From the NCBI GenBank assembly GCA_964518215.1, contig CAZFFP010000002.1, positions 24,317-88,316 on the forward strand: a stretch of DNA of 64,000 bases, given 5' to 3'. Origin of the DNA: an uncultured Chitinophagaceae bacterium (GTDB lineage: Bacteria; Bacteroidota; Bacteroidia; Chitinophagales; CAIOSU01). Below are positions 6,201-37,411 of this stretch, piece by piece (position 1 is the first letter of the stretch; each line of letters opens with the position of its first letter). The position numbers and the translations under genes were made by a program. Under the pieces are notes generated by a model, which was given only the letters and a program-made list of their open reading frames with translations, was not told where the DNA came from and did no database searches.

Positions 6201-9200
6201 TTTGCTTTGGTTGGTTGCTCCGTTCATTACCTGGTGGTCAAGCAAGCCTTTAACAAGGAAAACAGCGGCACTTACAAACCGGCAAAATATTTTTCTCAGA
6301 AAAATGGCGAGAAAGACCTGGAGTTTTTTCGAACATTTTGTTGGCTCGGAAGACAACTGGCTGCCGCCCGATAATTTTCAGGAACTGCCTGTGGAAGCAA
6401 TTGCACATCGCACGTCTCCCACCAACATCGGACTTGCATTGTTAGCCAACATAAGCGCCCGCGACTTTGGCTACATCACCACCGGGCAAATGATTGAACG
6501 AACCGCCAATACCATCAGCGCCATGAAAAAGATGGAGCGTTACAGAGGTCATTTTTACAATTGGTATGACACCCAAACGTTAGAGCCTTTGTATCCAAAA
6601 TATATTTCAACGGTGGACAGTGGCAACCTTGCCGGACACATGCTCGTTTTGCGGCAAGGTTTATTGGCTGTTCCGCATCAAAAAATAATCGGGTCGAAAA
6701 TATTTGACGGACTGTTAGATACGCTCCGTGTGCTGTTCGACACGTTGGAAGAGAAAGACGAAGAACTCTTGCTTGCATTCAAAGAAGATTTAAAAACTGC
6801 CGGCAAGCAGGATTTGAATAAACCGCTGGAAATAAAATCAAGTGTCGCGCAATTGACAAAAACCTTTCAGGCTGTTTTTGAAAAACTGAACAGCGACACT
6901 GAAAGTGAAACATATTGGTGGAAACAAAAACTAAAAACACAATTAGAGCAACTGAATGACGCGCTTCAAATTTTCACCCCCTGGGAATTGTTAGCGACTG
7001 CTCCGGCTCAGTTCAAAGATTTGGTTTCATTCCATCAAAATCCAACGCTGAACACATTATTAAAGACCGCGCGGAAAATGCGAGAGGAATTAAATTTTCA
7101 GCGCGATGCGAATAGTGAAAACGAATGGCTTGAATTATTTCAAACGGCATTAACACATACGATTGAACAGGCGGAAGAACAAATCACCAACTCTGAAATG
7201 CTTGCGCACCAATGCAACGACCTGGCAGAAATGTATTGGGATTTTCTGTTAGACAAAAGCTCTAATCTTTTTATTATCGGTTATAACGTGCAGGAGCGTC
7301 ATGCGGATTTGAGCTATTATGACCTGCTGGCATCCGAAGTCAGGTTGGGCGTTTTCGTAGGCATCGCGCAGGGGAAATTGCCTGAAGAAAGTTGGTTTGC
7401 GTTAGGACGCTTGCTCACGAATGTAGATGGTTCGCCCATTCTGCTTTCGTGGAGCGGTTCCATGTTTGAATACTTGATGCCGCAATTGGTGATGCCCTCT
7501 TACGAAAACACCCTGCTCGACCAAACTGCAAAAGCAGCGGTGGAAAGTCAAATCAATTATGGAAAAAAAACAGGGCATCCCTGGGGCATTTCGGAGTCCG
7601 GGTATAATATGTTGAGCGCGGAGTCGCATTATCAATACAGCGCATTCGGCATTCCCGGCTTGGGACTGAAACGCGGACTGGAAGATGATTTCGTCATCAC
7701 TCCGTATGCCTCTGCGCTGGCACTGATGGTAACTCCCGAAAGGGCTTGCAGAAATTTAGAGCTGCTCCATGAAAAAGGATTTCAGGGAAGACATGGATTT
7801 TATGAAGCCGTTGATTATACACCCTCGCGTTTGCCGCGCGGACAAAGCGAGGCGATTGTTTATTCATTCATGGCGCATCATCAGGGAATGAGTTTGCTCT
7901 CTTTGGCGCATCTGCTGCTTGACCAACCCATGCAAAAATTATTTGAAGCGGAACCGCAGTTTAAGGCAGCGCTTTTGTTATTGCAGGAACGCATTCCAAA
8001 AACAACCACCTACTTTGCGCATACCACCGATGTGTCGGATATTAGTTATGTATCGAGCGCCATCGAAACACGCATATTAAATACGCCCCATACGCCCATC
8101 CCGGAAGTGCAGTTGTTGTCCAATGGAAAATATCATGTCATGGTAACCAATGCCGGAGCGGGATACAGCCGTTGGAAAGATTTCGCGGTTACGCGCTGGC
8201 GCGAGGATGCAGCACGTGATAATTGGGGGACGTTTTGTTATATCCGAGATTTGGACAGCAAAGATTTTTGGTCGAACACACATCAGCCCACACTTCAAAA
8301 AGGAGAAAAATATGAAGCGGTCTTCGCGCATGGCCATGTGGATTTTCGCACAACCAACAACGAAATAGAAACACATACTGAAATTGTTGTTTCACCGGAA
8401 GATGATATAGAAATGCGCAGGCTTCGCGTTTCGAATCGGTCTTCCGCTAACAGAACGATTGAGCTTACCAGCTACGGGGAAGTAGTGCTCGCGCCTGCCG
8501 CTTCCGATTTGATGCAGCCGATTTTCAGCAATCTTTTTGTGCAAACGGAAATCATCCCGGAGCAACGTGCCATTATCTGCACGCGCAGACCGCGCTCTGC
8601 CGAAGAGCATCCTCCGTGGATGTGCCATTTGATGACCATGCATGGAAAAATTCCCGAAGAAATTTCATACGAAACCGACAGGATGCAATTTATCGGTCGT
8701 GGAAATTCCATCGTGCATCCGCAGGCGATGAACACTTCTGGACCGCTGTCGGGAAAACAGGGCGCGGTGTTAGACCCCATTGTGGCAATCCGGTATAAAA
8801 TAAAATTGGAGCCGGATGAAACCGTTACACTCGACATGGTTACAGGCATTGCCGAGACAAAAGAAACTTGTAAATACCTGATTGAAAAATATCAGGACAA
8901 ACATCATAAAGACCGTGTATTTGAATTAGCGTGGACACACAGCCAAGTGGTGCTTCGTCAAATCAACGCTTCGGAAGGCGATGCGCAATTGTATGGACGG
9001 CTTGCCAACTCCATCCTGTTTACCAACCCGGCATTTCGTGCAGACCCTGCCATTCTTATCAACAATCACCGGCAGCAGTCAGGTTTGTGGGGCTATTCCA
9101 TTTCGGGCGACTTGCCCATCGTGCTGTTGAAAATTGAGAACCAGGCGAATGTGAAATTGGTGCGGCAAATGGTGCAGGCTCATGCATACTGGCGCTTGAA

Positions 9201-12139: not shown

Positions 12140-12207
12140 ATTTATTTGTTTAACGGTTGCTCATAAAAGTGAGCATTATGGTAGAGAAAAGCGTTACATA
12201 ATCTTTA

Positions 12208-12500
12208 CAAATAATTACACCATTCACACTTTGTTGAAGTGGGGTAAATGACATTATTTATACTCCTAAATCTAGTAGTCAAGTCTGTAGCGAAACTATG
12301 TGACTTATGCCTATCCAAAATAAAAACCCTTTGCTTCGCTAATCGAATGTAGTTTTGAAAAAATGGATGATACCCATTCGGTCATCAACTAAATAAAAAT
12401 AAATGAAGTTGAAACTTACAGATCAAAAGGAATTATTTCCGGAGGAATGATACCGAAAATTGACAGTGCTTTAATAGCAGCCATAAAAATCATACAGCAG
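12208..12500 (+). pseudogene. decayed relic of a second acetylglutamate kinase (argB) C-terminal region
   Basis: From 12363 the frame reads MDDTHSVIN*IKINEVETYRSKGIISGGMIPKIDSALIAA. This aligns with the resident ArgB segment VEDEHSFIEKITYNDYEILKEKGIISNGMLPKMENAFYAA. Upstream pieces in two other frames read QIITPFTLC*SGVNDIIY and KTLCF. They align with QNITPIIAPITCNAEGQLLNVNADTIATY and TLALCF. At least two frameshifts and two in-frame stops are present. Confidence 0.55.
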
Positions 12501-25036: not shown

Positions 25037-25076
25037 ATGTGTGAATGATGTAAGAATAATTTGAAATTATATAACG
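25037..25076 (+). promoter_or_regulatory. bipartite conserved motif, copy M1 (upstream of desaturase)
   Basis: ATGTGTGAATGATGTAA (25037-25053), an 11-nt spacer, then AATTATATAACG (25065-25076). A -7-like TATCATTA lies at 25097-25104. Confidence 0.6.
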
Positions 25077-25123: not shown

Positions 25124-25849
25124 ATGATTATTCTCATTTTTTTTATTGCCCTTTGGTATCTGTCCCTTTTTTCACAAACCTTTTTTTTGCACCGGTATGC
25201 TTCGCACCGGGCGTTTACTATGAGCCGATTTTGGGAACGGGTATTTTATTTGTTCTCTTATTTCACTCAGGGAGCATCATATTTAAGTCCTCGCGCTTAC
25301 GCTGTGATGCACCGTATGCATCATGCCTATACTGATACCGATAAAGACCCGCACTCGCCCAAATATTCTTCCAATGTATTTTCTATGATGCTGAGCACGC
25401 GCAATATTTATTCGGGGATTTATCGCGGAAGGATTCAGCCCGAAAAGCAGTTTCTGAAAAATATTCCGCAATGGGATGCCTTAGATAAAATTGGTGAATC
25501 TATATACTCGCGCGGCTTATGGACTGTATTCTATATTTTGTTCTTTGTGCTTTTTGCCCAATCGGCATGGCTCTATCTGCTGCTTCCTGTGGTTATTCTG
25601 ATGGGTCCGGTGCATGGAGTTATTATCAACTGGTTTGCACACAAATACGGCACTGTAAATTTCAAACTCAATAATACATCGCGCAATTTGTTGCCGGTAG
25701 ATTTTTTAATGTTGGGCGAGAGCTATCACAACGACCATCATCATGCCCCTTCAAATCCAAACTTCGGCTCGCGTTGGTATGAAATAGACCCGGTGTATCT
25801 GATTATTCTTGTTTTCAACAAACTAAAAATTTTGAGATTGTCGAGGTGA
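25124..25849 (+). CDS. acyl-CoA/acyl-lipid (delta-9-type) fatty acid desaturase
   Basis: Three histidine boxes (HRYASHR, HRMHHAYTD, HNDHHHAP) between hydrophobic segments. Confidence 0.85.
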   Translation: MIILIFFIALWYLSLFSQTFFLHRYASHRAFTMSRFWERVFYLFSYFTQGASYLSPRAYAVMHRMHHAYTDTDKDPHSPKYSSNVFSMMLSTRNIYSGIYRGRIQPEKQFLKNIPQWDALDKIGESIYSRGLWTVFYILFFVLFAQSAWLYLLLPVVILMGPVHGVIINWFAHKYGTVNFKLNNTSRNLLPVDFLMLGESYHNDHHHAPSNPNFGSRWYEIDPVYLIILVFNKLKILRLSR

Positions 25850-25955: not shown

Positions 25956-26087
25956 GCCTGTTGTTTTTTCTTTAAAAAATCTGTGAATCATGCAACAGAA
26001 TTTCAGAATTGTGTAAGTATTAATGCTTGATAGCTCATCAATTTTGTGTTCCGGAATATTCCATTTATTTTATTAAAACGAACCTCT

Positions 26088-28173: not shown

Positions 28174-30081
28174 TCAATAATATAACTTACTTGGGTTTCC
28201 GTATTGAACAATGTCTGGTTTCTTTCCGATGAAATTAGGGAAAGGAAAAATAGGATTCAGCGAAACGCCTATGCCGAAAAAAGGAGTTCCCTCAGGCGGT
28301 GAGGGATAAATTGTAACCCTTATATCTATGGTGCCGATAACAAAATGCTGATTATTGAGTCGTATGCCGCTGCTGATGCCCCAATAAGGACGACCTGAAA
28401 ATACGAAGGCATCGCGCTTGCTGAAATAGGTAAGGTCGGTAGATGAGAATAACACCAAGCGAAATCCAAGCAAATGCCAGGGAGTAAATATTGAAAGTGT
28501 AGCTCCGCCCGTCAACACCGCATTACCAAAAAGCCGCTCTGTTCTGAGCCTGCGCAGCCCGTCTAAATCATTCAAATCAACCCGGTCGTTTTCGTTGGTG
28601 CGGTTCAGTCCTCTGATGTATTGCCCGCGCAACTGAATACGTCCTTTGAAAATTTTCTCGGCACCTATCAACTTTGAAATATATAAACTGGTAATACGCA
28701 GCGCTCCGTCAGAGAATTTTTTGTTGTGAAAAAAAAAGCCCAATTCTACGGAGTTGAAAAAATATCCTTGTTTTACAAAAACGCTACTCGAAACACGAAT
28801 GCCCGCATAAGGACGGCTTACAAACTCGCCCAACGAATATCCCAGCGTAACATCAGCCAACAAACCGATGGGAACATCTTCGGTTACTCCGAAACCTTCA
28901 ATCAAAATATCTTTTGCGAATGCCGCACGCGAAAAACCAAAGCTGCCCAACATCAACGTATTTGTCTGGAATGCAAGATTGGTGTCGGCATCGGCAAATG
29001 GACGCTCTGTAACTATGGTTGAAGAAACCCTTCCGGACAATACAAAATTCAGATGACCAAGCAGCAAAGAGTCGCGGGTGGGAATAGGAAATCTGCGCCC
29101 ATACCATCCGTCAAAATTATTGTCGGCCACACGGGTGCGGGCGCGGCTTTCATCATAGCGCGAATAATAGCGAAACACCCGATAGTGGTAGCTCAATCCA
29201 CCCGCGTTTCTGATTTCATGCGTAATAAATTGTCGCTCGTTGCTGATGCGGGCAAGCAAGCTGTCATCGGTAAAAGCAAGATTCAAATCGCCCTGCATGA
29301 AAGTGCCATAAAGATTATACACTGTGTATTGCGCCTCATATCCCATCTTTCTTCCGGCATTGATAATAATATTGTTATAAAAATTTTGTCCCAATCCAAA
29401 CATGTTGTTTTCTTCCAAAGTCAAATTCCATTCATCATATTGAGTGGGCTTTATTTTAATAGAAGCAGAGAACACATCTTTCGTTATCACATATACATCT
29501 ATCGTGTCGGGTGATAATTTTCTTGCAACGCCATATACCCGCGCATCAAGAATAAAGGGCAATGCTCTCAGTAATCGTTCACTTTCCACTAATGCGTGGC
29601 GTGTAAGTTTGTCGCCTTCTTTTAAAAGCATATTGTTCAGCACTACTTTGTCTTTAGTGGTAATGTGAAGTTTGTTTCCCGTTTCTTTCACCCAATTTAT
29701 TAATCGCTTGGAACTGTCCGCAGCAAAAGTTTCGAAAGGGTTTAATTTAGTGATGGTGATGTTGCCCACTATTTTCCCCTTGTGAGAATGCGAGTTTCCG
29801 CTTTTACTCAAGGGCTGTATTGCATGGGTATCAATAAACATTCTGTTGTAATAAAATTTTACCAATTTTCTTTTCTTCACTTTCACAATAGACGAATCGA
29901 AAGGAATAGTAACGTCTTTTTTTACAACGAAAGAAGAGTCGCTGTAAATCACCTTATCATATTTTTTCAGTTGAATATTCTTTTGCCCCTTGCTTGGCAG
30001 AGATAATAGCAGGAAAACCACGAGAAGAAAATGCAGATGCCTTTTCGGACAAGTAACAACAAAATAAAGCGGCACACACAA
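28174..30081 (-). CDS. Omp85-family (BamA/TamA-like) outer-membrane protein
   Basis: 635 aa with a POTRA-like N-terminal part (KEGDKLTRHALVESERLLRALPFILDARVY...DTIDVYVITKD). A long run of alternating beta-strand-like sequence follows, ending in an aromatic residue (SKLYY). The start is uncertain: the track uses TTG 30081, and there is no in-frame ATG in the first 80 codons. Confidence 0.7.
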   Translation of the reverse strand: MCVPLYFVVTCPKRHLHFLLVVFLLLSLPSKGQKNIQLKKYDKVIYSDSSFVVKKDVTIPFDSSIVKVKKRKLVKFYYNRMFIDTHAIQPLSKSGNSHSHKGKIVGNITITKLNPFETFAADSSKRLINWVKETGNKLHITTKDKVVLNNMLLKEGDKLTRHALVESERLLRALPFILDARVYGVARKLSPDTIDVYVITKDVFSASIKIKPTQYDEWNLTLEENNMFGLGQNFYNNIIINAGRKMGYEAQYTVYNLYGTFMQGDLNLAFTDDSLLARISNERQFITHEIRNAGGLSYHYRVFRYYSRYDESRARTRVADNNFDGWYGRRFPIPTRDSLLLGHLNFVLSGRVSSTIVTERPFADADTNLAFQTNTLMLGSFGFSRAAFAKDILIEGFGVTEDVPIGLLADVTLGYSLGEFVSRPYAGIRVSSSVFVKQGYFFNSVELGFFFHNKKFSDGALRITSLYISKLIGAEKIFKGRIQLRGQYIRGLNRTNENDRVDLNDLDGLRRLRTERLFGNAVLTGGATLSIFTPWHLLGFRLVLFSSTDLTYFSKRDAFVFSGRPYWGISSGIRLNNQHFVIGTIDIRVTIYPSPPEGTPFFGIGVSLNPIFPFPNFIGKKPDIVQYGNPSKLYY

Positions 30082-30106
30082 ATATGCCGCCTATTCATTT
30101 GAATAG

Positions 30107-30146
30107 CGTTATATAATTCATTCTAAGAGTTACATCATTCACACAT
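30107..30146 (-). promoter_or_regulatory. bipartite conserved motif, copy M2 (pointing at the Omp85-like gene)
   Basis: The minus strand reads ATGTGTGAATGATGTAA, an 11-nt spacer, then AATTATATAACG. A -7-like CATATTTG follows 21 nt later (30086-30079). Confidence 0.6.
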
Positions 30147-30171
30147 GCGTTTCATTCTGGATTATCTCTAT

Positions 30172-30210
30172 ACATGTGAATTGTATAATACTTCCATTTA
30201 ATTGTGTAAC
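30172..30210 (+). promoter_or_regulatory. bipartite conserved motif, degenerate copy M4 (pointing at the DUF748-mla operon)
   Basis: ACATGTGAATTGTATAA (12/17 to box 1), an 11-nt spacer, then AATTGTGTAAC. A -7-like CATCTTTA lies at 30232-30239. Confidence 0.5.
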
Positions 30211-30248
30211 TCTTTCGGAGGCATTGTAACGCATCTTTACAATGCTTC

Positions 30249-32588
30249 ATGACACGATTTAAAAAAGCCCTGCTGATTGCTGCCGCTTCGATAGTAATTA
30301 TCGGGGTGTTGTTTGTGGCATTCCTTTCGCCCATTGCTAAATATCTGGTTGAAAAATATGATGAGCAATTTTTAGGCAGACAAATCACGCTGGGTATGGC
30401 TTATGTAAACCCGTTTACGGGCTATGTTTATCTCACCAATCTTAAAGTGTATGAATTGAAAAGCGATAGTGTTTTTCTTTCGGCAAAAAGTGTGAGTGCT
30501 AATTTCAAAATGCTTCATCTATTTAAGAAAGCGTATGTATTTAATCACATAACATTAAACGAGCCCAGGGGCATCATTAGTCATCATAACGAAGAGGGCA
30601 TTAATTTTAATGATATTATCGAATTGTTTACGCCCAAACATCCGCGCGATTCTACAAAACAAAAAGTTCGTTTCAGCATACTGGCTTTAAATATTAATGA
30701 CGGAGAATTTCATTATCGCGATGAACAGATTCCGGTAAACTATTTTATCAAAAATGTAAATATAGAAAGCACCGGCATACGGTGGAACGCAGACACCACT
30801 ACAGCCCAATTTTCTTTTTCATCTGGAATCGGAAGCGGTGAAATAAAAGGCAATTACACGTTTAATATTAATAATCTGGATTATCGTTTTGACGCAGTAG
30901 TTGAAAAATACGATTTGAATATTATTGAACAATACCTGAAAGATTTAATGAATTATGGAACCTTCACTGCAAATGTTGATGCCGATGTGAAAGCAAGTGG
31001 CAATTTTAAAAGCCAAGAAAACCTGACTGCATCCGGCACACTATCAGTGAATAAATTTCATTTCGGAAAAAGTGAAGGAGATGATTTTCTTGCTTTCGAA
31101 AAATTAAAATTAGATGTTACGGAGCTAAGTCCCGAGCATCATAAATATGTGATTGATTCTATATTGCTCAGCAGTCTGTTTTTTAAATATGAACGTTACG
31201 ATTTTTTAGATAATCTGCAAACGATGTTTGGTAAAGATGGAGCTAACATTAAATCTGTTAGCGGTGATGCTTCTCAATTTAACCTTGTTATAGAAATAGC
31301 CCGATATGTAGAAGTGATAGCAAAAAACTTTTTGCGTAGCGATTATAAGATTAACCGTTTGGCAATTACCAATGGCAATGTTCAATTCAATGACTATTCA
31401 ATAAGCGAAAAATTTACTGTTGCATTAAGCCCATTAAACATTGAAGCGGATTCTATTAACAAAGAATATAATAGGGTTAAACTATCATTAGAGTCGGGCA
31501 TTAAACCCTTCGGTGAGGCTTCTGTTACCCTGAGCGTTAATCCAAAAGACAGCAGCTATTTTGATATGCAGTATCACCTTCAAAAAATTCCGGTTACTCT
31601 TTTCAATCCCTATATCATTTCTTTTACATCCTTTCCTTTAGACCGTGGAACCATTGATATACATGGCACCTGGAATGTCAGAGACGGAGACATTCAAAGC
31701 GATAATCATCTGGTGATTGTTGACCCTCGTATAGCTCCGCGCATAAAAAATAAAGACACGAAGTGGGTTCCGGTGCCGCTCATTATGGCATTTGCGCGCG
31801 AGCGCGGCAATGTGATTGATTATGAAATTCCGATAACGGGCAATTTGAAAAATCCGAAGTTTAATGTATGGGATGTAGTGTTTGATGTAGTTGGAAATAT
31901 TTTTGTTAAACCCGCCACTACTGTATATAGAAATCAGGTAAAAAACCTGGAAAAAGAAATTGAAAAATCGCTGGCGTTAAAATGGAACGCCCAAAGCAGC
32001 GAACTCACTGCATCGCAGGAAAAATTTATAGAAAGAATAGCGGATTTTCTGGCAAATAACCCCGATGCTGTAATTACGGTTCATCCGAAGCAGTATGCAC
32101 TTAAAGAAAAAGAATTCATTTTATTTTTTGAAGCGAAGAAAAAATATTTCTTGCTCGCTAATAATATTAATGAAGCAGCATTCAGCGAAAAAGATTCTAT
32201 AGCCGTTAACAAAATGTCGGTGAAAGATGAGTCGTTTGTCGCCTATCTCGATAAGCAACTCAACGATTCGATGCTTTTTACCATACAAGATAAATGTGCC
32301 GGTATTATTAAAGCATCGCTTGTGAATGCACGATTCAGCGAATTAAATCAGGCGAGAGAAAATGAATTCCTGTTCTATTTCAGCGAAAAAGATGTTGACA
32401 AGCAAGTGAAGTTTTCTGCCGAAGAAAACACTATTCCCTACAACGGATTTTCTTTTTACAAAATAGCATACGAAGATGAATTTCCTGAGTCGTTAACCAA
32501 TGCATATTTGAAAATGAATGAACTGAATGATGAAGCCCCAAGGAAAAAATATAAGCGAGAAAGGAAACAGAATGCCCTTTCACTTTAA
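30249..32588 (+). CDS. DUF748 / AsmA-like family protein (single N-terminal TM anchor, long beta-rich periplasmic body)
   Basis: 779 aa. It starts MTRFKKALLIAAASIVIIGVLFVAFLSPIAKYLVEKY, as DUF748/AsmA-type proteins do. There are no enzymatic motifs. mlaE follows after 19 nt. Confidence 0.65.
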   Translation: MTRFKKALLIAAASIVIIGVLFVAFLSPIAKYLVEKYDEQFLGRQITLGMAYVNPFTGYVYLTNLKVYELKSDSVFLSAKSVSANFKMLHLFKKAYVFNHITLNEPRGIISHHNEEGINFNDIIELFTPKHPRDSTKQKVRFSILALNINDGEFHYRDEQIPVNYFIKNVNIESTGIRWNADTTTAQFSFSSGIGSGEIKGNYTFNINNLDYRFDAVVEKYDLNIIEQYLKDLMNYGTFTANVDADVKASGNFKSQENLTASGTLSVNKFHFGKSEGDDFLAFEKLKLDVTELSPEHHKYVIDSILLSSLFFKYERYDFLDNLQTMFGKDGANIKSVSGDASQFNLVIEIARYVEVIAKNFLRSDYKINRLAITNGNVQFNDYSISEKFTVALSPLNIEADSINKEYNRVKLSLESGIKPFGEASVTLSVNPKDSSYFDMQYHLQKIPVTLFNPYIISFTSFPLDRGTIDIHGTWNVRDGDIQSDNHLVIVDPRIAPRIKNKDTKWVPVPLIMAFARERGNVIDYEIPITGNLKNPKFNVWDVVFDVVGNIFVKPATTVYRNQVKNLEKEIEKSLALKWNAQSSELTASQEKFIERIADFLANNPDAVITVHPKQYALKEKEFILFFEAKKKYFLLANNINEAAFSEKDSIAVNKMSVKDESFVAYLDKQLNDSMLFTIQDKCAGIIKASLVNARFSELNQARENEFLFYFSEKDVDKQVKFSAEENTIPYNGFSFYKIAYEDEFPESLTNAYLKMNELNDEAPRKKYKRERKQNALSL

Positions 32589-32607
32589 CAAAATAAATGT
32601 GTATTAA

Positions 32608-33453
32608 ATGAAAAAATTTAATCCCATCATTAAAGTAATCCCCAAGCTCAAGGATGCAAGGGAATTAACTATTAAGCTCAGCGAAAAAACCCTTGCCACC
32701 ACCGAAGTGGCGAGCAACTTTTTAACCGATTTGGCTGATGCGTTTCTGTTTGTGATACGCATAGTAAAAGAAACATTTTCGCGCAAGTTTGAATTTAGAG
32801 AGTTCTTGTATCAATGTTTTCAAATCGGCTATAAATCATTACCTCTCATTTCCATCACCGGGGCTATTATGGGCATTGTGCTCACTATTCAATCGCGCCC
32901 GGTATTGGTAGACTTTGGCGCGGTAGCGATGTTGCCGGGAATGGTTGCTGTTTCGCTCATTAGAGAAATGGGACCGGTGATTACCGGATTGATTTGTGCC
33001 GGAAAAATAGGCTCGGGCATGGGAGCCGAATTAGGCTCTATGAAAGTAACCGAACAGATTGATGCTATGGAAGTGTCTTCTACTAATCCCATGCGGTTTT
33101 TAGTAGTTACAAGAGTGTTGGCTGCAACGTTTATGATACCGCTGTTGGTTTTATATGCTGATGCCTGGGGTTTATTAGGAAGTTGGGGAGCCGCCAATAT
33201 TAAAGGTGATGTAACCTTTACTCTATTTTTCGCTCAAGCATTTAAGCCGGTTGACTTTATGGATTTTTTACCAGCAGTTGTCAAAACATTTTTCTTCGGG
33301 GCAGTCATTGGAATTGTAGGTTGTTATAAAGGATACAATGCCGGGCGCGGAACGGAGAGCGTAGGTATCGCGGCAAATTCTGCAGTTGTATTAGCATCGC
33401 TGCTGGTAATTATTATAGACATGATTGCCGTTCAAATCACCGATATGTTTTAA
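32608..33453 (+). CDS. mlaE: MlaE-family lipid ABC transporter permease
   Basis: 281 aa. The conserved MlaE core reads AMLPGMVAVSLIREMGPVITGLICAGKIGSGMGAELGSMKVTEQIDAMEV. Confidence 0.85.
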   Translation: MKKFNPIIKVIPKLKDARELTIKLSEKTLATTEVASNFLTDLADAFLFVIRIVKETFSRKFEFREFLYQCFQIGYKSLPLISITGAIMGIVLTIQSRPVLVDFGAVAMLPGMVAVSLIREMGPVITGLICAGKIGSGMGAELGSMKVTEQIDAMEVSSTNPMRFLVVTRVLAATFMIPLLVLYADAWGLLGSWGAANIKGDVTFTLFFAQAFKPVDFMDFLPAVVKTFFFGAVIGIVGCYKGYNAGRGTESVGIAANSAVVLASLLVIIIDMIAVQITDMF

Positions 33454-34238
33454 TGATGGAAACAAACGAAACAAAAACTTTAGTGAATACTTCTGCGAAA
33501 GCAACAAGCGATAAGCCGGTTATTGAAATCAATAACCTCAAAAAATCATTTGGCAAAGAAGCAGTGTTAAAAGATATTTCGCTGAAACTTTTTAATGGCG
33601 AAAACTTAGTGGTGTTGGGCAAATCGGGCAGTGGAAAATCGGTATTGATTAAATGTATCGCGGCATTATTAAAATCTGATGGAGGAACGATTAATGTTTT
33701 TGATAAAAACGTGCTCACCATGAAAAGAAAAGAGTTAGGAGAAATGCGGGAAAAAATCGGTTTTTTGTTTCAGAGTGGCGCACTATACGATTCTATGACA
33801 GTGAAACAGAATCTTGAATTTCCGTTGAGCAGAATAAAAAAGAATCTTTCGAAAGAAGAAAGGGCAACAAAAATTAATGAGGCGTTAGAGAATGTCGGGT
33901 TAGCGGATGCGCTCGATAAAATGCCCTCACAGCTTTCGGGCGGCATGAGAAAACGCATCAGTCTGGCTCGCACCATTGTTGTGGACCCGATGATAATGCT
34001 GTATGACGAACCCACTACAGGGCTTGACCCTGTTACTTCCAATGAAATAAGTTTACTGATTATGGATATTCAGAAAAAATACAAAACATCATCTATCATC
34101 ATCACGCACGATATTAAGTGCGCCATTAAAACAGCCAACCGAATCATTATGCTTGAGGACGGAGTGGTTTATAAAGACGGTAAACTTGAAGACTTTGAAA
34201 CTTCTGATGACCCGGTAATAAATTCATTTTTTAAATAA
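33453..34238 (+). CDS. mlaF: MlaF-type ABC transporter ATP-binding protein
   Basis: Walker A GKSGSGKS, signature LSGGMRKR and Walker B MLYDEPTTGLD. A TAATG overlaps the mlaE stop. Confidence 0.85.
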   Translation: MMETNETKTLVNTSAKATSDKPVIEINNLKKSFGKEAVLKDISLKLFNGENLVVLGKSGSGKSVLIKCIAALLKSDGGTINVFDKNVLTMKRKELGEMREKIGFLFQSGALYDSMTVKQNLEFPLSRIKKNLSKEERATKINEALENVGLADALDKMPSQLSGGMRKRISLARTIVVDPMIMLYDEPTTGLDPVTSNEISLLIMDIQKKYKTSSIIITHDIKCAIKTANRIIMLEDGVVYKDGKLEDFETSDDPVINSFFK

Positions 34239-34296
34239 ACAACATTACTCAATTCTCATTACTCACCACTTAATTCTCACTACTTAATACTATATC

Positions 34297-35076
34297 ATGG
34301 ATACAAATTCACAAAAATTTAAAGTTCGCCTGGGGCTATTCATTGCCGTGGGCTTAGCGCTTTTTGTCATAACAATTTTTATCATCGGAAAGCAAAAGAA
34401 TTTATTCAATCCCGTATTCAAGCTCACCACAACATTTCACAATGTCAGCGGATTGCAGGTGGGAAATAATATTCGCTTCTCAGGCATTAATGTAGGCACG
34501 GTTGATAAAATCACCATCATTAACGACTCTATGGTGAGAGTAGATATGTTGGTGAGAAAAGAAATCAAGCAGTTTATAAAATCGGATGGTATTGTAGCTA
34601 TTGGCTCAGAAGGTCTTATTGGCGACCGGCTTTTAATGATTACACAAGGCAATAGCGATTCGCCTGTTGTGGAAGAGGGGCAGGAGCTTCAATCAGCCGA
34701 ACCTGTTGAAACAGACGCTATCATGTTAAGTTTGGCAATAACGGCAGTGAATGCCGAAATTATTTCGGAGCAATTGGCGGAAATAATGATTGGCATCAAC
34801 AGCGGGCAAGGAACCATCGGCAGGCTGCTAAAGGATACAGTGATTGCAGAAAACATGAGCCAAACCATGCTGAATTTGAAAAGAAGCAGTAAAGGTTTAG
34901 ATGAAAACATGGAAGCGCTGCAGCATAATTTTTTACTGAAAGGTTTTTTCAATAAGAAAGAAAAAGCGGCAGCGCAAAAAATTAAAGATGAAGAAAAATT
35001 AAAAGCTGCCGAACAAAAGCAGCAGGAATCTGACGATAAAAAAGCCGCCAAACAAAAGGCAAAAGATGAAAAATAA
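34297..35076 (+). CDS. mlaD: MlaD/MCE-domain protein with Lys/Ala/Glu-rich C-terminal tail
   Basis: An N-terminal TM helix, an MCE domain (FHNVSGLQVGNNIRFSGINVGTVDKI), and a low-complexity KKEKAAAQKIKDEEKLKAAEQKQQ tail. Confidence 0.8.
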   Translation: MDTNSQKFKVRLGLFIAVGLALFVITIFIIGKQKNLFNPVFKLTTTFHNVSGLQVGNNIRFSGINVGTVDKITIINDSMVRVDMLVRKEIKQFIKSDGIVAIGSEGLIGDRLLMITQGNSDSPVVEEGQELQSAEPVETDAIMLSLAITAVNAEIISEQLAEIMIGINSGQGTIGRLLKDTVIAENMSQTMLNLKRSSKGLDENMEALQHNFLLKGFFNKKEKAAAQKIKDEEKLKAAEQKQQESDDKKAAKQKAKDEK

Positions 35077-35116
35077 ATGTGTGAATGATGTAATTCTATT
35101 TACAAATTCTGTAACA
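35077..35116 (+). promoter_or_regulatory. bipartite conserved motif, copy M3 (upstream of the ytxH triad)
   Basis: ATGTGTGAATGATGTAA starts 1 nt after the mlaD stop. An 11-nt spacer is followed by AATTCTGTAACA. A -7-like GAACTTTG lies at 35136-35143. Confidence 0.6.
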
Positions 35117-35203: not shown

Positions 35204-35488
35204 ATGGATTCAGAAAAAGTATTATTAGGATTTCTTGCCGGTGTAGCAGTTGGAGCTACATTAGGAATTTTATTTGCACCTGACAAAGGTTCAAACACAA
35301 GAAAAAAAATCGCCAGAAGAAGCAATGAGTATGCAGAAGGCATCAAAGAAAAATTCAACGAGATTTTAGAAAATGTAAACACCAAATTAGAAGAACTTTC
35401 TGAAGAAGAAACCACCGGTGCAAACGCCAACAATGGTTTATCCAGAGCAGAAGCCACACAAAAAGAAGTGAGTGCATCTTCTTATTAA
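35204..35488 (+). CDS. YtxH domain-containing stress protein
   Basis: 94 aa. LLGFLAGVAVGATLGILFAPDKGSNTRKKI is the characteristic YtxH N-terminus. Confidence 0.85.
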   Translation: MDSEKVLLGFLAGVAVGATLGILFAPDKGSNTRKKIARRSNEYAEGIKEKFNEILENVNTKLEELSEEETTGANANNGLSRAEATQKEVSASSY

Positions 35489-35507
35489 AACACCACAAAG
35501 CAGCAAC

Positions 35508-35849
35508 ATGGAAACTAAAAAAAATGTCATTGGGTCATTGTTTGAACAAGTAGAAGATTACAGCAAAACCACTTACAAACTTTCAAAACTCAAATCCATT
35601 GAAACCGGCACAATAGTGATTACCGAACTGGTATCGCGCTTGAGTGTCATCATTTTAGTTTCCCTGTTTGCGCTGGTGTTTAATATTGGTATTGCCTTGT
35701 TGCTGGGAGAATTACTCGGAAAAAATTATTACGGCTTTTTCATAGTAGCGGGCTTCTATCTTCTTGCCGGAATCATCGTTCATTTTTTTCTGCATAAATG
35801 GATTAAAAAACCGTTGAGCGAATTAATTATTATTCATGCCCTTCAATAA
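35508..35849 (+). CDS. small two-TM membrane protein (holin-family-like partner of YtxH)
   Basis: I prefer the ATG at 35508 (METKKNVIGSLFEQVEDY). It has two hydrophobic helices and is the typical middle gene of the YtxH triad in Bacteroidota. Confidence 0.7.
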   Translation: METKKNVIGSLFEQVEDYSKTTYKLSKLKSIETGTIVITELVSRLSVIILVSLFALVFNIGIALLLGELLGKNYYGFFIVAGFYLLAGIIVHFFLHKWIKKPLSELIIIHALQ

Positions 35850-35857
35850 ACCATGCG

Positions 35858-36253
35858 ATGCAAAAAATAACCTCATCATCAGAACTCAGAGCCGCTATTC
35901 TGGAATTAGAAAGCAAGCATAGAGAAGAAGGAAGAGTATTGAAAAAAGATATAAACGCTACTGTTGAAAGCATGAAGCCTGTCAATATCATCAAAAGCAT
36001 TTTGAAAAAAGTTTCAGCATCAGATGAAGTGAAAGAGAGCCTTTTGAACACCACTATTGTGCTGGCTGCGGGCTATGCGTCTAAAGTGTTGTTTGAAGAA
36101 TTGTCGGGCAAGCCGTTAAAGAAAACGCTTGGCACTACATTGCTTTTTGGCATCACTACCATCGCCACAAAAAATCCTGAAGCAGTAATTATGTTCGGCA
36201 AAGGAGTGTTCAAAATTTTCAGTAATGGCATTAAAAAGAATGAAGCACTTTAA
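35858..36253 (+). CDS. hypothetical protein (third gene of the YtxH triad)
   Basis: 131 aa with an amphipathic N-terminus and a hydrophobic C-terminal half. It is tightly spaced after the previous gene. Confidence 0.65.
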   Translation: MQKITSSSELRAAILELESKHREEGRVLKKDINATVESMKPVNIIKSILKKVSASDEVKESLLNTTIVLAAGYASKVLFEELSGKPLKKTLGTTLLFGITTIATKNPEAVIMFGKGVFKIFSNGIKKNEAL

Positions 36254-36310
36254 AAAAATTCATTCAACACAGCCTGCACAATACCAAAGAATCAGATTAT
36301 AGCAATTAAA

Positions 36311-37411
36311 ATGAACAAACAGTTTACGTTGCCTTTCTATGCAAAGGTGTCGCTCATCCTGATAGGGATGTTTTTCTTTATTAGCATGTTATACATTGCT
36401 CAGGATATTATTCTTCCTTTAATCTATGCAGCAGTTATTGCCATCTTAATCAGCCCCGCCATCAATTTATTGGTGAGAATAAAAATAAACCGCACATTGG
36501 CAATATCTATTGTTCTGTTTATCGCAGTGCTTTTCATAGTCGGGCTGATAGTATTAATAATATCCCGAACAAATTTATTGATAGAGGCACTGCCACAAAT
36601 GACCGCAAAGTTTGAAACCTTGCTCCGCGATGCGGTGAAATGGGCTTCAGAATATTTGCATATCACCACCAAAGAAATAGATATATGGCTTGCCAATGAA
36701 AAGGCACAACTCATGGAGTCGAATAATATTGGCGTAAGCGGAACGCTTGTGTCTATGGGTAGCGGGTTGACTATCATGATGCTTACTCCGGTTTATACAT
36801 TTATGCTGCTGTATTATCAGCCGCACTTGGTTTTATTTGTGCATCAATTATTTGGAAACGATAATGATAAAAGTGTAACGGAGATTCTTTCCGAAACAAA
36901 AGTTATTATTCAAAATTATTTAAACGGGCTGTTGGTAGAATTTGTGATAGTAGCTGTCATGAATACCGTTGGGCTGCTTTTACTTGGAATAGAATACGCC
37001 ATTCTGTTGGGCATTATTGGTTCGTTATTAAATGTCATTCCCTATATAGGCGGAATAGTAGGAGTGGCATTGTTTATGGCGGTAGCTTTAGTTACCAAAG
37101 CGCCTATTTATGTGTTCTATGTATTCATGCTTTATATCGTCATACAGTTTATAGACAACAATTATATCGTTCCAAAAATTGTTGGTTCCAAAGTGAAACT
37201 CAACGCGCTCGTGTCTATTATCGGAGTGATTGCGGGTGCAGCTCTGTGGGGCATATCAGGCATGTTTCTTTCCATACCCATACTCGCCATCATCAAGCTG
37301 ATTTCCGACCGCATTAACCCGCTCAAGCCCTGGGGCTTTCTGTTGGGCGACACCATGCCTCCGATAGTGGAGTTGAAGTTAAAATTTATTAGACTGACTA
37401 AGAGAATTTGA
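36311..37411 (+). CDS. AI-2E family transporter (PerM/UPF0118)
   Basis: 366 aa, polytopic. The conserved C-terminal part reads IPYIGGIVG...DNNYIVPKIVGSKVKLNAL...GAALWGISGMFLSIP. Confidence 0.85.
   Translation: MNKQFTLPFYAKVSLILIGMFFFISMLYIAQDIILPLIYAAVIAILISPAINLLVRIKINRTLAISIVLFIAVLFIVGLIVLIISRTNLLIEALPQMTAKFETLLRDAVKWASEYLHITTKEIDIWLANEKAQLMESNNIGVSGTLVSMGSGLTIMMLTPVYTFMLLYYQPHLVLFVHQLFGNDNDKSVTEILSETKVIIQNYLNGLLVEFVIVAVMNTVGLLLLGIEYAILLGIIGSLLNVIPYIGGIVGVALFMAVALVTKAPIYVFYVFMLYIVIQFIDNNYIVPKIVGSKVKLNALVSIIGVIAGAALWGISGMFLSIPILAIIKLISDRINPLKPWGFLLGDTMPPIVELKLKFIRLTKRI

What the first reader, a model, noticed from the sequence alone, without database searches (positions are those of the whole stretch)
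28174..35076. Omp85-like barrel, divergent from a DUF748/AsmA-like-mlaE-mlaF-mlaD operon: a possible self-contained IM-to-OM lipid transport locus lacking mlaC
**Seen in the sequence.**
- mlaE-mlaF-mlaD have clear permease, Walker/signature and MCE motifs.
- They are preceded on the same strand, after only 19 nt, by a 779-aa protein with one N-terminal TM anchor and a long beta-rich body of the DUF748/AsmA-like kind.
- A 635-aa Omp85 (BamA/TamA-like) gene is transcribed divergently 167 nt away.
- The shared spacer carries two opposed copies of the conserved motif.
- No mlaC-, mlaB- or mlaA-like gene is present.

**Established knowledge.**
- MlaFEDB is an inner-membrane ABC/MCE lipid transporter that normally needs the soluble shuttle MlaC.
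- AsmA-like proteins (TamB, YhdP and others) are periplasm-spanning lipid conduits.
- TamB works with the Omp85 protein TamA.

**Inference.** The AsmA-like protein may replace MlaC as a bridge between the MlaFED engine and an Omp85 partner. I am not aware of an experimentally described Mla-AsmA-Omp85 combination.

**Caveat.** The Omp85-like ORF has no in-frame ATG in its first 80 codons. The track start TTG 30081 lies inside the predicted -7 box. An out-of-frame ATG at 30098-30096 opens MNRRHICVCRFILLLLV..., so the true 5' end, or a sequencing frameshift there, is unresolved.
Basis: partly seen in the sequence, partly recalled or inferred. Interest (0 to 1): 0.62.

Follow-up and report, generated by a model that had tools for sequence, protein, structure and literature searches.

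The report
Co-regulated lipid-transport genes with Omp85-like barrel
An uncultured Bacteroidota genome encodes an AsmA-like (DUF748) protein in one operon with an MlaC-less MlaFED lipid pump. Next to it lies a very divergent Omp85-type outer-membrane barrel, and both units carry the same conserved promoter element, so they look like one co-regulated envelope-lipid module whose physical wiring is still unknown.

Summary
Profile searches confirm DUF748 (255 bits), MlaE, an ABC ATPase and MlaD, with the stated 19-nt and 167-nt gaps.

The 635-aa ORF misses Pfam's Omp85 model. Its family profile nevertheless matches an Omp85 protein at 99.8% (hhalign). Its AlphaFold model (pLDDT 78) matches BamA and TamA (Foldseek E about 1e-12).

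The "two opposed motif copies" are real. A 35-nt bipartite element sits a fixed 22 nt upstream of a Bacteroidota -7 box. It occurs six times in the window (0.24 expected). In relatives it heads DUF748, mlaE, Omp85-like and general-stress genes.

Synteny is mixed:
- MlaFED lies within 10 kb of DUF748 in 10 of 15 related loci, in shuffled orders.
- The Omp85-like gene follows mlaD directly in three genomes and is divergent from the DUF748 operon in two.
- It is unlinked in 79 of 80 metagenome loci and in its four closest relatives.

MlaFED without MlaA/C is already known to be ancestral, and Veillonella has an mlaEFD-tolC-tamB operon. Functional association is therefore supported. The idea that DUF748 physically replaces MlaC is untested.

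The 5' end of the Omp85-like gene stays unresolved. A one-base homopolymer error is plausible.

I rate this a new variant of a known kind.

The parts
28174..30081 (-). Omp85-like outer-membrane protein (Omp85L). [quoted passage not shown] The 5' end is unresolved.
   Evidence: ORF. AF2 pLDDT 77.6. Foldseek to BamA/TamA, E about 1e-12. hhalign 99.8% to a PF01103 protein. No direct PF01103 hit. The family has 1,459 representative clusters at E<=1e-30. Residues 34-95 are conserved with relatives, so the database's 555-aa call from the internal ATG is truncated.
30109..30143 (-). Composite promoter element (box 1 TGTGAATGATGTAAC, box 2 AATTATATAAC) driving Omp85L. Its in-register -7 box CATATTTG lies at 30086-30079.
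30042..30045 (-). A4 homopolymer. One extra A would bring TTG 30062/30059 (16 nt after the -7 box) into frame and give MLLLVRKRHLHFLLVVFLLLSLPSKG|Q, a canonical signal peptide.
   Evidence: Reading. The closest relative, L097, has its -7 box followed after 17 nt by a GTG start. This is inference. Reads gave no coverage here.
30175..30209 (+). Opposed copy of the composite promoter element, driving the DUF748-mlaEFD operon. The variant -7 box CATCTTTA lies at 30232-30239, 9 nt before the ATG, so the mRNA is nearly leaderless.
30249..32588 (+). DUF748-type AsmA-like protein. It has an N-terminal membrane anchor, a beta-rich periplasmic region (about residues 45-540) and a C-terminal alpha/beta domain (about 585-745) followed by a charged tail.
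   Evidence: Pfam PF05359, 255 bits. More than 1,500 homologues, the best 120 at 57-73% identity, some also carrying PF05170 AsmA. AF2 pLDDT 64 and pTM 0.36.
32608..33453 (+). mlaE permease.
   Evidence: PF02405 2.6e-69. TIGR00056 209 bits.
33453..34238 (+). mlaF-type ABC ATPase. Its start overlaps the mlaE stop.
   Evidence: PF00005 6e-32. MlaF model 150 bits, below cut-off.
34297..35076 (+). mlaD: membrane anchor, one MCE domain (residues 43-118) and about 140 further residues ending in a Lys/Glu-rich tail. It has no beta-barrel.
   Evidence: PF02470 1e-14. TIGR04430 and TIGR00996 partial matches.
35080..35114 (+). Third nearby copy of the composite promoter. It starts 4 nt after the mlaD stop and heads the ytxH cluster.
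35204..37411 (+). YtxH, a 125-aa membrane protein, a 131-aa protein and an AI-2E-family permease. This block travels with DUF748 and mlaEFD in relatives.
   Evidence: Pfam. Synteny in L001, L008-L011 and L099. AI-2E is the immediate upstream neighbour of Omp85L in two Flavobacterium genomes.
25040..25074 (+). Copy of the composite promoter upstream of the fatty-acid desaturase gene (25124-25849).
25982..26016 (+). Copy of the composite promoter upstream of the 668-aa T9SS-cargo gene.

Best explanation
This locus is one permutation of a loosely conserved, co-regulated envelope-lipid gene set of Bacteroidota.

Organisation (shown):
- A single promoter type drives the operon DUF748-mlaE-mlaF-mlaD. 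The promoter is a 35-nt bipartite upstream element placed a fixed 22 nt before a TAnnTTTG-type -7 box.
- The same promoter type, in divergent orientation, drives a single-POTRA Omp85-superfamily barrel.
- It also drives the neighbouring ytxH general-stress cluster, a desaturase gene and a T9SS-cargo gene.

Mechanism (inferred):
- MlaFED is the ancestral MlaA/B/C-less ABC/MCE engine in the inner membrane. It moves glycerophospholipid, or another envelope lipid, using its own extended MlaD.
- The DUF748 protein is an inner-membrane-anchored, bridge-like AsmA-family groove.
- The two are expressed together to balance lipid flow between the membranes. The most likely arrangement is opposing or complementary routes, as shown genetically for MlaEFD and TamB in Veillonella.
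- The Omp85-like barrel is the most likely outer-membrane-side partner of this module, by analogy with TamA-TamB. Which inner-membrane component it serves is unresolved.

Shown: gene identities, operon-like spacing, shared promoter, recurrent linkage. Inferred: lipid cargo, direction of flow, and any physical contact.
For: - Domain identities.
- Tight spacing: 19 nt, a 1-nt overlap and 58 nt.
- DUF748-centred loci: mlaEFD lies within 10 kb in 10 of 15. It is directly operonic in L099 (DUF748 then mlaEFD, as here) and L009 (mlaEFD then DUF748), and two genes away in L101.
- Omp85L sits directly downstream of mlaD on the same strand, with roughly 60-170-nt gaps, in L004, L094 and L099. It is divergent from PAP2-DUF748 in L005 and L007.
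- The linked cases fall in three separate clades of the Omp85L tree.
- Promoter: six exact copies in the window against 0.24 expected. There are 61 instances with at most one mismatch in 1.52 Mb of window plus loci, and 53 of them have TTTG at one fixed offset.
- That promoter precedes mlaE (L005, L006, L101), PAP2-DUF748 or c63-PAP2-DUF748 (L002-L007, L100), Omp85L (L007), and YtxH and CsbD-like genes.
- Literature: MlaEFD-only systems are ancestral, and TamB suppresses mla phenotypes (PMC10665443). B. theta has an extended MlaD (PMC10212509). TamA-TamB is an Omp85/AsmA-like lipid and protein translocase (PMC12800296, PMC13119328; abstracts only).
Against: - Omp85L is unlinked to Mla and DUF748 in 79 of 80 Omp85L-centred metagenome loci. 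It is also unlinked in all four closest relatives (44-62% identity) and in Pontibacter and Formosa.
- The shared promoter also heads unrelated stress and secreted-protein genes. Co-regulation alone could therefore explain the clustering, as a regulon island.
- The DUF748 model is of low confidence and gave no significant PDB match.
- No direct evidence exists for the cargo, the direction of flow or any protein contacts.
- The loci are partly related to each other, so the counts are not independent.
Confidence: 0.45

Rival explanations
1. MlaFED, the DUF748 protein and the Omp85-like barrel form one continuous trans-envelope machine. The DUF748 groove takes the place of the soluble shuttle MlaC and docks on the barrel.
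For: - All five genes lie on one strand in L099.
- Omp85L is adjacent to mlaD in three genomes and to DUF748 operons in three, counting the window.
- The promoter is shared.
- MlaD here has no beta-barrel of its own, and FCB-group MlaD proteins lack one generally (PMC10665443).
- The beta-rich region of about 500 residues looks too short to span the periplasm alone, which would fit a composite bridge (inference).
Against: - No interaction data or co-folding could be obtained.
- The DUF748 C-terminus is an alpha/beta domain plus a Lys/Arg-rich tail, with no DUF490 or beta-signal-like end.
- In five of 15 DUF748 loci no mlaEFD lies within the available flank.
- Most Omp85L genes are unlinked.
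- In the one experimentally studied Mla plus AsmA-like operon, the two act antagonistically (PMC10665443).
- Extended MlaD tunnels are the published idea for Bacteroides (PMC10212509).
Confidence: 0.17
2. The Omp85-like gene is not a partner of DUF748 or Mla. It is a widespread Bacteroidota outer-membrane protein of separate function, such as an insertase or secretion pore. In some lineages it simply sits in the same stress-regulon island.
For: - It is unlinked in 79 of 80 metagenome loci, where the commonest neighbours look, from their N-terminal sequences only, like housekeeping genes (tilS-, proS- and peroxiredoxin-like; not profile-tested).
- It is unlinked in its closest relatives.
- The same promoter heads many unrelated genes, with 11 copies in the 22 kb of L001.
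- The family is large: 1,459 clusters at E<=1e-30.
Against: - Five of 16 DUF748-centred places (the window, L004, L005, L007, L099) have Omp85L within 10 kb. A 20-kb span in a genome of about 4 Mb gives roughly 0.5% by chance.
- There are four different arrangements spread over three Omp85L clades.
- In Flavobacterium its neighbour is the AI-2E permease, which belongs to the same travelling block.
Confidence: 0.3

Closest known systems
Veillonella parvula / Negativicutes mlaEFD-tolC-tamB operon (PMC10665443)
   Same: An MlaA/B/C-less MlaEFD core is encoded in one operon with an AsmA-family protein and an outer-membrane barrel gene. This is envelope-lipid homeostasis.
   Different: The AsmA-like protein here is a 779-aa DUF748 type, not a TamB with DUF490. 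MlaD here is 259 aa with no C-terminal beta-barrel. The barrel gene is a divergent single-POTRA Omp85 relative, not TolC. The phylum is Bacteroidota.
TamA-TamB (TAM) and Bacteroidota TamL-TamB (PMC4494059, PMC12045153)
   Same: An Omp85-superfamily barrel is encoded next to an inner-membrane-anchored AsmA-family protein.
   Different: There is no DUF490/TamB domain. Omp85L has one POTRA rather than three and no lipobox Cys. It misses PF01103. The pairing is divergent, not an operon. A separate canonical Omp85+TamB pair lies beside a DUF748 gene in L100, so DUF748/Omp85L is not the TAM of these organisms.
E. coli MlaFEDB-MlaC-MlaA pathway
   Same: Same MlaE permease, MlaF ATPase and MlaD MCE core.
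   Different: No MlaB, MlaC or MlaA in the locus. MlaD is longer, and the operon starts with an AsmA-like gene.
Bacteroides thetaiotaomicron extended MlaD (review PMC10212509)
   Same: A Bacteroidota Mla system without mlaA or mlaC, with an MlaD extended beyond the MCE domain.
   Different: The review proposes that the MlaD tunnel alone reaches towards the outer membrane. It does not mention DUF748 or an Omp85-like partner.
YdbH-YnbE (PMC11126948)
   Same: A mid-sized AsmA-like protein that needs a separate outer-membrane partner to complete the bridge.
   Different: The partner there is a small lipoprotein, not an Omp85-like barrel. There is no ABC/MCE engine in that operon.

Membership tests
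AsmA-like clan, DUF748 (PF05359) | Profile match above the curated threshold | tested here: met
   255 bits against a cut-off of 50. Close homologues also carry PF05170 AsmA or PF13116.
AsmA-like clan, DUF748 (PF05359) | Single N-terminal inner-membrane anchor | tested here: met
   Hydrophobic stretch ALLIAAASIVIIGVLFVAFLSPI. AF2 helix 2-41.
AsmA-like clan, DUF748 (PF05359) | Long periplasmic beta-taco with a hydrophobic groove that reaches the outer membrane or a partner | tested here: inconclusive
   AF2 shows beta strands across residues 45-540, but pLDDT is 64 and pTM 0.36. There was no significant PDB match.
Mla ABC/MCE core (MlaFED) | MlaE permease, ABC ATPase with Walker and signature motifs, and a membrane-anchored single-MCE MlaD, encoded together | tested here: met
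   Gaps of -1 and 58 nt.
Proteobacterial six-component Mla pathway | MlaB (STAS), MlaC (periplasmic shuttle) and MlaA (outer-membrane lipoprotein) | tested here: not met
   No such domain in any ORF from 28.1 to 37.4 kb. The whole genome is not available. PMC10212509 reports that Bacteroides thetaiotaomicron lacks mlaA and mlaC.
Omp85 superfamily | Match to the Omp85/Bac_surface_Ag barrel profile PF01103 | tested here: not met
   None of 34 family members hits PF01103 at E<=0.1.
Omp85 superfamily | Homology detectable by profile comparison, and the barrel-plus-POTRA fold | tested here: met
   hhalign 99.8% to the PF01103-bearing P0081. BamA E=0.002 in PDB sequences. Foldseek to BamA/TamA at E about 1e-12, prob 1.0, although TM is only 0.3-0.4. 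A beta-alpha-alpha-beta-beta unit at residues 104-202.
Omp85 superfamily | Loop-6 (V/I)RG(F/Y) motif | tested here: inconclusive
   The family consensus is G-L-x-G-F, with GLRGF/GIRGF in part of the family. This aligns with GLRGY of P0081. The window has GLRRL.
TAM (TamA-TamB) / TamL-TamB | TamB C-terminal DUF490 (PF04357); three POTRA domains; a lipobox Cys for TamL | tested here: not met
   No PF04357 hit. One POTRA. Signal peptides end in AQ-type sites without a conserved Cys.
Veillonella-type trans-envelope MlaD | MlaD with a long helical region and its own C-terminal outer-membrane beta-barrel | tested here: not met
   MlaD is 259 aa and nothing is detected beyond the MCE domain. FCB-group MlaD proteins lack the barrel (PMC10665443).

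The most novel reading that the evidence does not exclude
The Omp85-like barrel is the dedicated outer-membrane receptor of a three-part trans-envelope lipid transporter found only in Bacteroidota. In this model the ATP-driven MlaFED engine, the DUF748 groove and the barrel form one conduit, a "split" counterpart of the Veillonella MlaD-with-barrel. The whole machine would be switched on by a previously undescribed, phylum-conserved stress promoter or activator site.
Probability: 0.17. Interest if true: 0.8.

Novelty: new variant of a known kind. Interest (0 to 1): 0.55.

Why it matters
How MlaFED systems without MlaA and MlaC reach the outer membrane is an open question outside Proteobacteria. 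What the many non-TamB AsmA-like proteins do is also open.

This locus and its relatives offer concrete, testable candidates:
- a DUF748 protein co-transcribed with MlaFED;
- a large, uncharacterised Omp85-superfamily branch that current Pfam models miss and that repeatedly sits next to mlaD;
- a conserved composite promoter that defines the regulon they share.

Relatives of both protein families occur in Flavobacterium and other cultured Bacteroidota, so knock-outs and pull-downs are feasible.

Tried and rejected
- The genome-contig scan used the single DUF748 protein and returned only 12 loci.
- The full 34-sequence Omp85L alignment was too diverse for the metagenome scan. An 11-sequence subset worked.
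- The window's own DUF748 protein is not on record, so the source contig could not be fetched.
- One related DNA run was found (lake water metagenome, 5% of words). Its contigs gave zero depth at 29940-30123, so the frameshift question stays open.
- An exact search for the canonical -7 motif TAnnTTTG found none in the spacer. One-mismatch matches are at background density. The -7 boxes were recognised only through their fixed register behind the 35-nt element.
- Foldseek of the DUF748 model gave no significant match. Local hints to Pal, OmpA-like and PorE C-terminal domains (prob about 0.87, E 0.5-1) got no support from Pfam or from a C-terminal profile against PDB sequences. I treat them as an unconfirmed lead.
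- Rfam found no families in 24-38 kb.
- TAM/TamL membership was considered and rejected (see the membership tests).
- DUF3943, PAP2, DUF6600, the AraC-type regulator, the hybrid kinase and the response regulator seen in relatives have no homologue in the window.
- Literature searches for DUF748 with Mla, and for AsmA-like with MCE and Omp85, found no description of this combination.

Full report
**What is there**

The ORF map matches the finding exactly.
- A 635-aa ORF lies on the minus strand at 28174-30081, with a TTG start.
- After a 167-nt spacer, four plus-strand genes follow at 30249-32588, 32608-33453, 33453-34238 and 34297-35076.
- The gaps between those four are 19 nt, a 1-nt overlap and 58 nt.

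Pfam places the 779-aa protein firmly in DUF748 (PF05359, 255 bits against a cut-off of 50). The next three genes are MlaE, an ABC ATPase and MlaD/MCE. NCBIfam agrees. The downstream plus-strand genes are YtxH, two small proteins and an AI-2E-family permease. T9SS sorting domains in several neighbouring genes place the organism in Bacteroidota. The only sequencing run that shares sequence with the window is a lake-water metagenome.

**Is the minus-strand gene Omp85?**

By direct profile search it is not. Only a sub-threshold POTRA hit appears, and none of 34 family members hits PF01103. Remote homology and fold say it is:
- a partial BamA match in NCBIfam, 3.4e-7;
- the family profile against PDB BamA sequences, E=0.002;
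- hhalign of the family profile against a PF01103-bearing protein at 99.8% probability, E=2e-28, 465 columns, with the loop-6 GLRGY of that protein aligned to GLRRL here;
- an AlphaFold2 model (pLDDT 77.6, pTM 0.76) with a signal-peptide helix, a poorly predicted segment, one beta-alpha-alpha-beta-beta POTRA-like unit and a large barrel;
- best PDB matches that are all BamA or TamA, at E about 1e-12 and probability 1.0, though TM-scores are only 0.3-0.4.

The family is large and unnamed. It has 1,459 representative clusters at E<=1e-30, with typical lengths of about 600-660 aa. Named members come from Pontibacter, Flavobacterium, Hymenobacter, Formosa and Bacteroidales. It is not TamL, because there is no conserved lipobox cysteine. 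It is not TamA, because it has one POTRA rather than three.

**The DUF748 protein**

More than 1,500 homologues were found. The best 120 are 57-73% identical and nearly all 760-800 aa long. This is far more conserved than the Omp85-like protein, whose relatives are mostly 25-30% identical.

The AF2 model is weak (pLDDT 64, pTM 0.36). It shows:
- an N-terminal helix at residues 2-41;
- beta strands through about residue 540;
- a better-predicted alpha/beta domain at about residues 585-745, followed by a charged helix.

Foldseek gave nothing significant. Local hints to Pal/OmpA-like domains were not backed by sequence profiles. DUF748 is documented as related to TamB and AsmA (PMC4494059).

**Synteny around DUF748**

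Fifteen related loci centred on DUF748 were examined.
- mlaEFD lies within 10 kb in ten of them: L001, L004-L006, L008-L010, L012, L099 and L101.
- Order and orientation vary. L099 has DUF748 then mlaEFD, as in the window. L009 has mlaEFD then DUF748. L101 has mlaEFD, two genes, then DUF748. Several Bacteroidales MAGs have a convergent arrangement about 5 kb apart.
- The YtxH triad and the AI-2E permease travel with them (L001, L008-L011, L099).
- In Bacteroidales MAGs the set also includes two PAP2 lipid phosphatases, DUF6600, and a DUF3943 protein encoded directly after mlaD. None of these has a homologue in the window.
- Persistence of proximity despite rearrangement argues for a functional or regulatory link between DUF748 and MlaFED.

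**Synteny around the Omp85-like gene**

The picture here is mixed.

Linked cases:
- It follows mlaD on the same strand, with gaps of roughly 60-170 nt, in L004, L094 and L099.
- L099, a Flavobacteriales MAG, has all five genes of the finding on one strand.
- It is divergent from a PAP2-DUF748 operon in L005 and L007.
- In two Flavobacterium species its upstream neighbour is the AI-2E permease.
- The linked cases fall in three separate clades of a neighbour-joining tree.

Unlinked cases:
- 79 of 80 metagenome loci found with an Omp85-like alignment show no Mla or DUF748 in the available flanks.
- The four closest relatives (44-62% identity) are all unlinked.
- Pontibacter and Formosa are unlinked.

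The association is therefore recurrent and well above a chance rate of about 0.5%. It is far from universal, and the divergent arrangement seen in the window is specific to this lineage.

**The shared promoter**

- A 17-mer, ATGTGTGAATGATGTAA, occurs three times exactly in the window.
- Aligning its contexts shows a bipartite 35-nt element, TGTGAATgaTGTAAc-N10-aAtTTgTGTAAC.
- A pattern with 19 specified bases matches six times in the window against 0.24 expected.
- Two copies are opposed in the divergent spacer, at 30143-30109 for the Omp85-like gene and 30175-30209 for DUF748.
- The other four lie directly after the mlaD stop ahead of ytxH, ahead of the desaturase, ahead of the 668-aa T9SS-cargo gene, and ahead of a 66-aa ORF.

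Across the window plus 103 loci (1.52 Mb) there are 61 instances with at most one mismatch. In 53 of them TTTG sits at one fixed offset (49 at offset 26, four at offset 25), preceded by A three bases earlier in 93%. That is a TAnnTTTG-type Bacteroidota -7 box 22 nt behind the element.

In relatives the composite promoter heads the following:
- mlaE (L005, L006, L101);
- PAP2-DUF748 or c63-PAP2-DUF748 (L002-L007, L100);
- the Omp85-like gene (L007);
- DUF6600, YtxH and CsbD-like genes;
- an AraC-type 188-aa regulator (L008, L010).

L001 has 11 copies in 22 kb. The two TGTAAC repeats 21 nt apart, with the second overlapping the -33 region, resemble a class-II activator site. That reading, and the AraC-type candidate, are speculation. 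The solid conclusion is that DUF748-mlaEFD and the Omp85-like gene belong to one conserved regulon with a general-stress flavour.

**The 5' end of the Omp85-like gene**

- Residues 34-95 are conserved with relatives. The database's 555-aa gene call from the internal ATG is therefore truncated.
- The in-register -7 box is CATATTTG at 30086-30079.
- In the closest relative (L097) the homologous -7 box, CATTTTTG, is followed after 17 nt by a GTG start that gives a normal signal peptide.
- In the window, TTG codons at 30062 and 30059 lie 16 nt after the box but are out of frame. One extra A in the A4 run at 30045-30042 would join them to the ORF and give MLLLVRKRHLHFLLVVFLLLSLPSKG|Q.
- A homopolymer error is therefore plausible, but I could not check it.

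**Comparison with what is known**

- MlaEFD without MlaABC is the ancestral, widespread form. FCB-group MlaD proteins lack the outer-membrane barrel seen in Veillonella. Veillonella and all Negativicutes have an mlaEFD-tolC-tamB operon in which loss of tamB suppresses mla phenotypes (PMC10665443).
- B. thetaiotaomicron lacks mlaA and mlaC and has an extended MlaD predicted to form a tunnel (PMC10212509).
- Omp85 plus AsmA-like pairing has its precedent in TamA-TamB and TamL-TamB (PMC4494059, PMC12045153).
- F. johnsoniae has seven AsmA-like proteins, most of them unstudied (PMC12045153).
- I found no paper that describes DUF748 with Mla, or this Omp85-like family.

**Verdict**

The genes form a co-regulated, recurrently linked envelope-lipid set. 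The specific claim that DUF748 replaces MlaC as a physical bridge to the Omp85-like barrel is untested and faces a well-founded rival, namely separate and possibly opposing routes. I rate this a new variant of a known kind, of moderate interest. Its main value is that it gives concrete candidates for how MlaC-less Mla systems and small AsmA-like proteins connect to the outer membrane in Bacteroidota.

Noticed in passing
window 12194-12228(-), 25040-25074(+), 25982-26016(+), 30109-30143(-), 30175-30209(+), 35080-35114(+); also L001-L008, L010, L012, L070, L094, L100, L101: A conserved 35-nt bipartite element (TGTGAATgaTGTAAc-N10-aAtTTgTGTAAC) sits a fixed 22 nt upstream of a TAnnTTTG-type -7 box. 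It defines a regulon of envelope-lipid, general-stress (YtxH, CsbD-like) and secreted-protein genes across divergent Bacteroidota. L001 has 11 copies in 22 kb. In L008 and L010 it also precedes an AraC-type regulator gene.
   Followed up: partly
window 30042-30045 (A-run) and 30057-30062 (TTG TTG): One extra A in the A4 homopolymer would put two TTG codons, located 16 nt after the -7 box, in frame. That would give the Omp85-like protein a canonical signal peptide and would match the start position in the closest relative, L097. This is a possible assembly frameshift.
   Followed up: partly
window 30067-30092 (-): A GC-rich inverted repeat (GGCGGCA...TGCCGCT) followed by a T-run brackets the -7 box and the nominal TTG start of the Omp85-like gene. 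It is absent from the homologous place in L097. Its meaning is unknown.
   Followed up: no
window 3244-11925 (+): A 2,893-aa ORF with GH94 supersandwich, GH94 catalytic and glucoamylase domains, which looks like a cyclic beta-1,2-glucan synthase. Its G+C is 45-49%, against 33-41% in the flanking DNA, so it may have been acquired horizontally.
   Followed up: partly
L003-L007, L012 (for example L005 15537-17129, minus strand): In Bacteroidales MAGs a roughly 525-aa DUF3943 protein with a signal peptide is encoded directly after mlaD. In L005 the two genes overlap by 4 nt. In L004 the Omp85-like gene sits between mlaD and the DUF3943 gene. This may be another outer-membrane-side partner of MlaFED.
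   Followed up: partly
L002-L007 (for example L005 9016-9936, plus strand): A PAP2 lipid-phosphatase gene lies immediately upstream of DUF748, behind the shared promoter, and a second PAP2 gene lies nearby. This suggests the cargo or context may be a phosphorylated lipid other than bulk phospholipid.
   Followed up: no
window residues 585-745 of the DUF748 protein (about 32001-32483): The C-terminal alpha/beta domain is predicted with better confidence than the rest of the protein. Local Foldseek hits to Pal, OprF-C and PorE-C peptidoglycan-binding domains (prob about 0.87) have no sequence-profile support.
   Followed up: partly
L100 234-7081 (-): A canonical Omp85 (PF01103) plus TamB (PF04357) pair lies directly beside the YtxH...DUF748 block. 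The TAM and DUF748 genes are therefore neighbours in that genome.
   Followed up: no
L099 17757-19388 (-): A 543-aa protein with an N-terminal anchor and a beta-rich body lies 2 kb downstream of the DUF748-mlaEFD-Omp85L cluster. It looks like a second small AsmA-like protein but has no Pfam hit.
   Followed up: partly
L096 10001-11868: The Omp85-like gene of this close relative is split into two ORFs (422 + 189 aa), either by a frameshift or by an assembly error.
   Followed up: no
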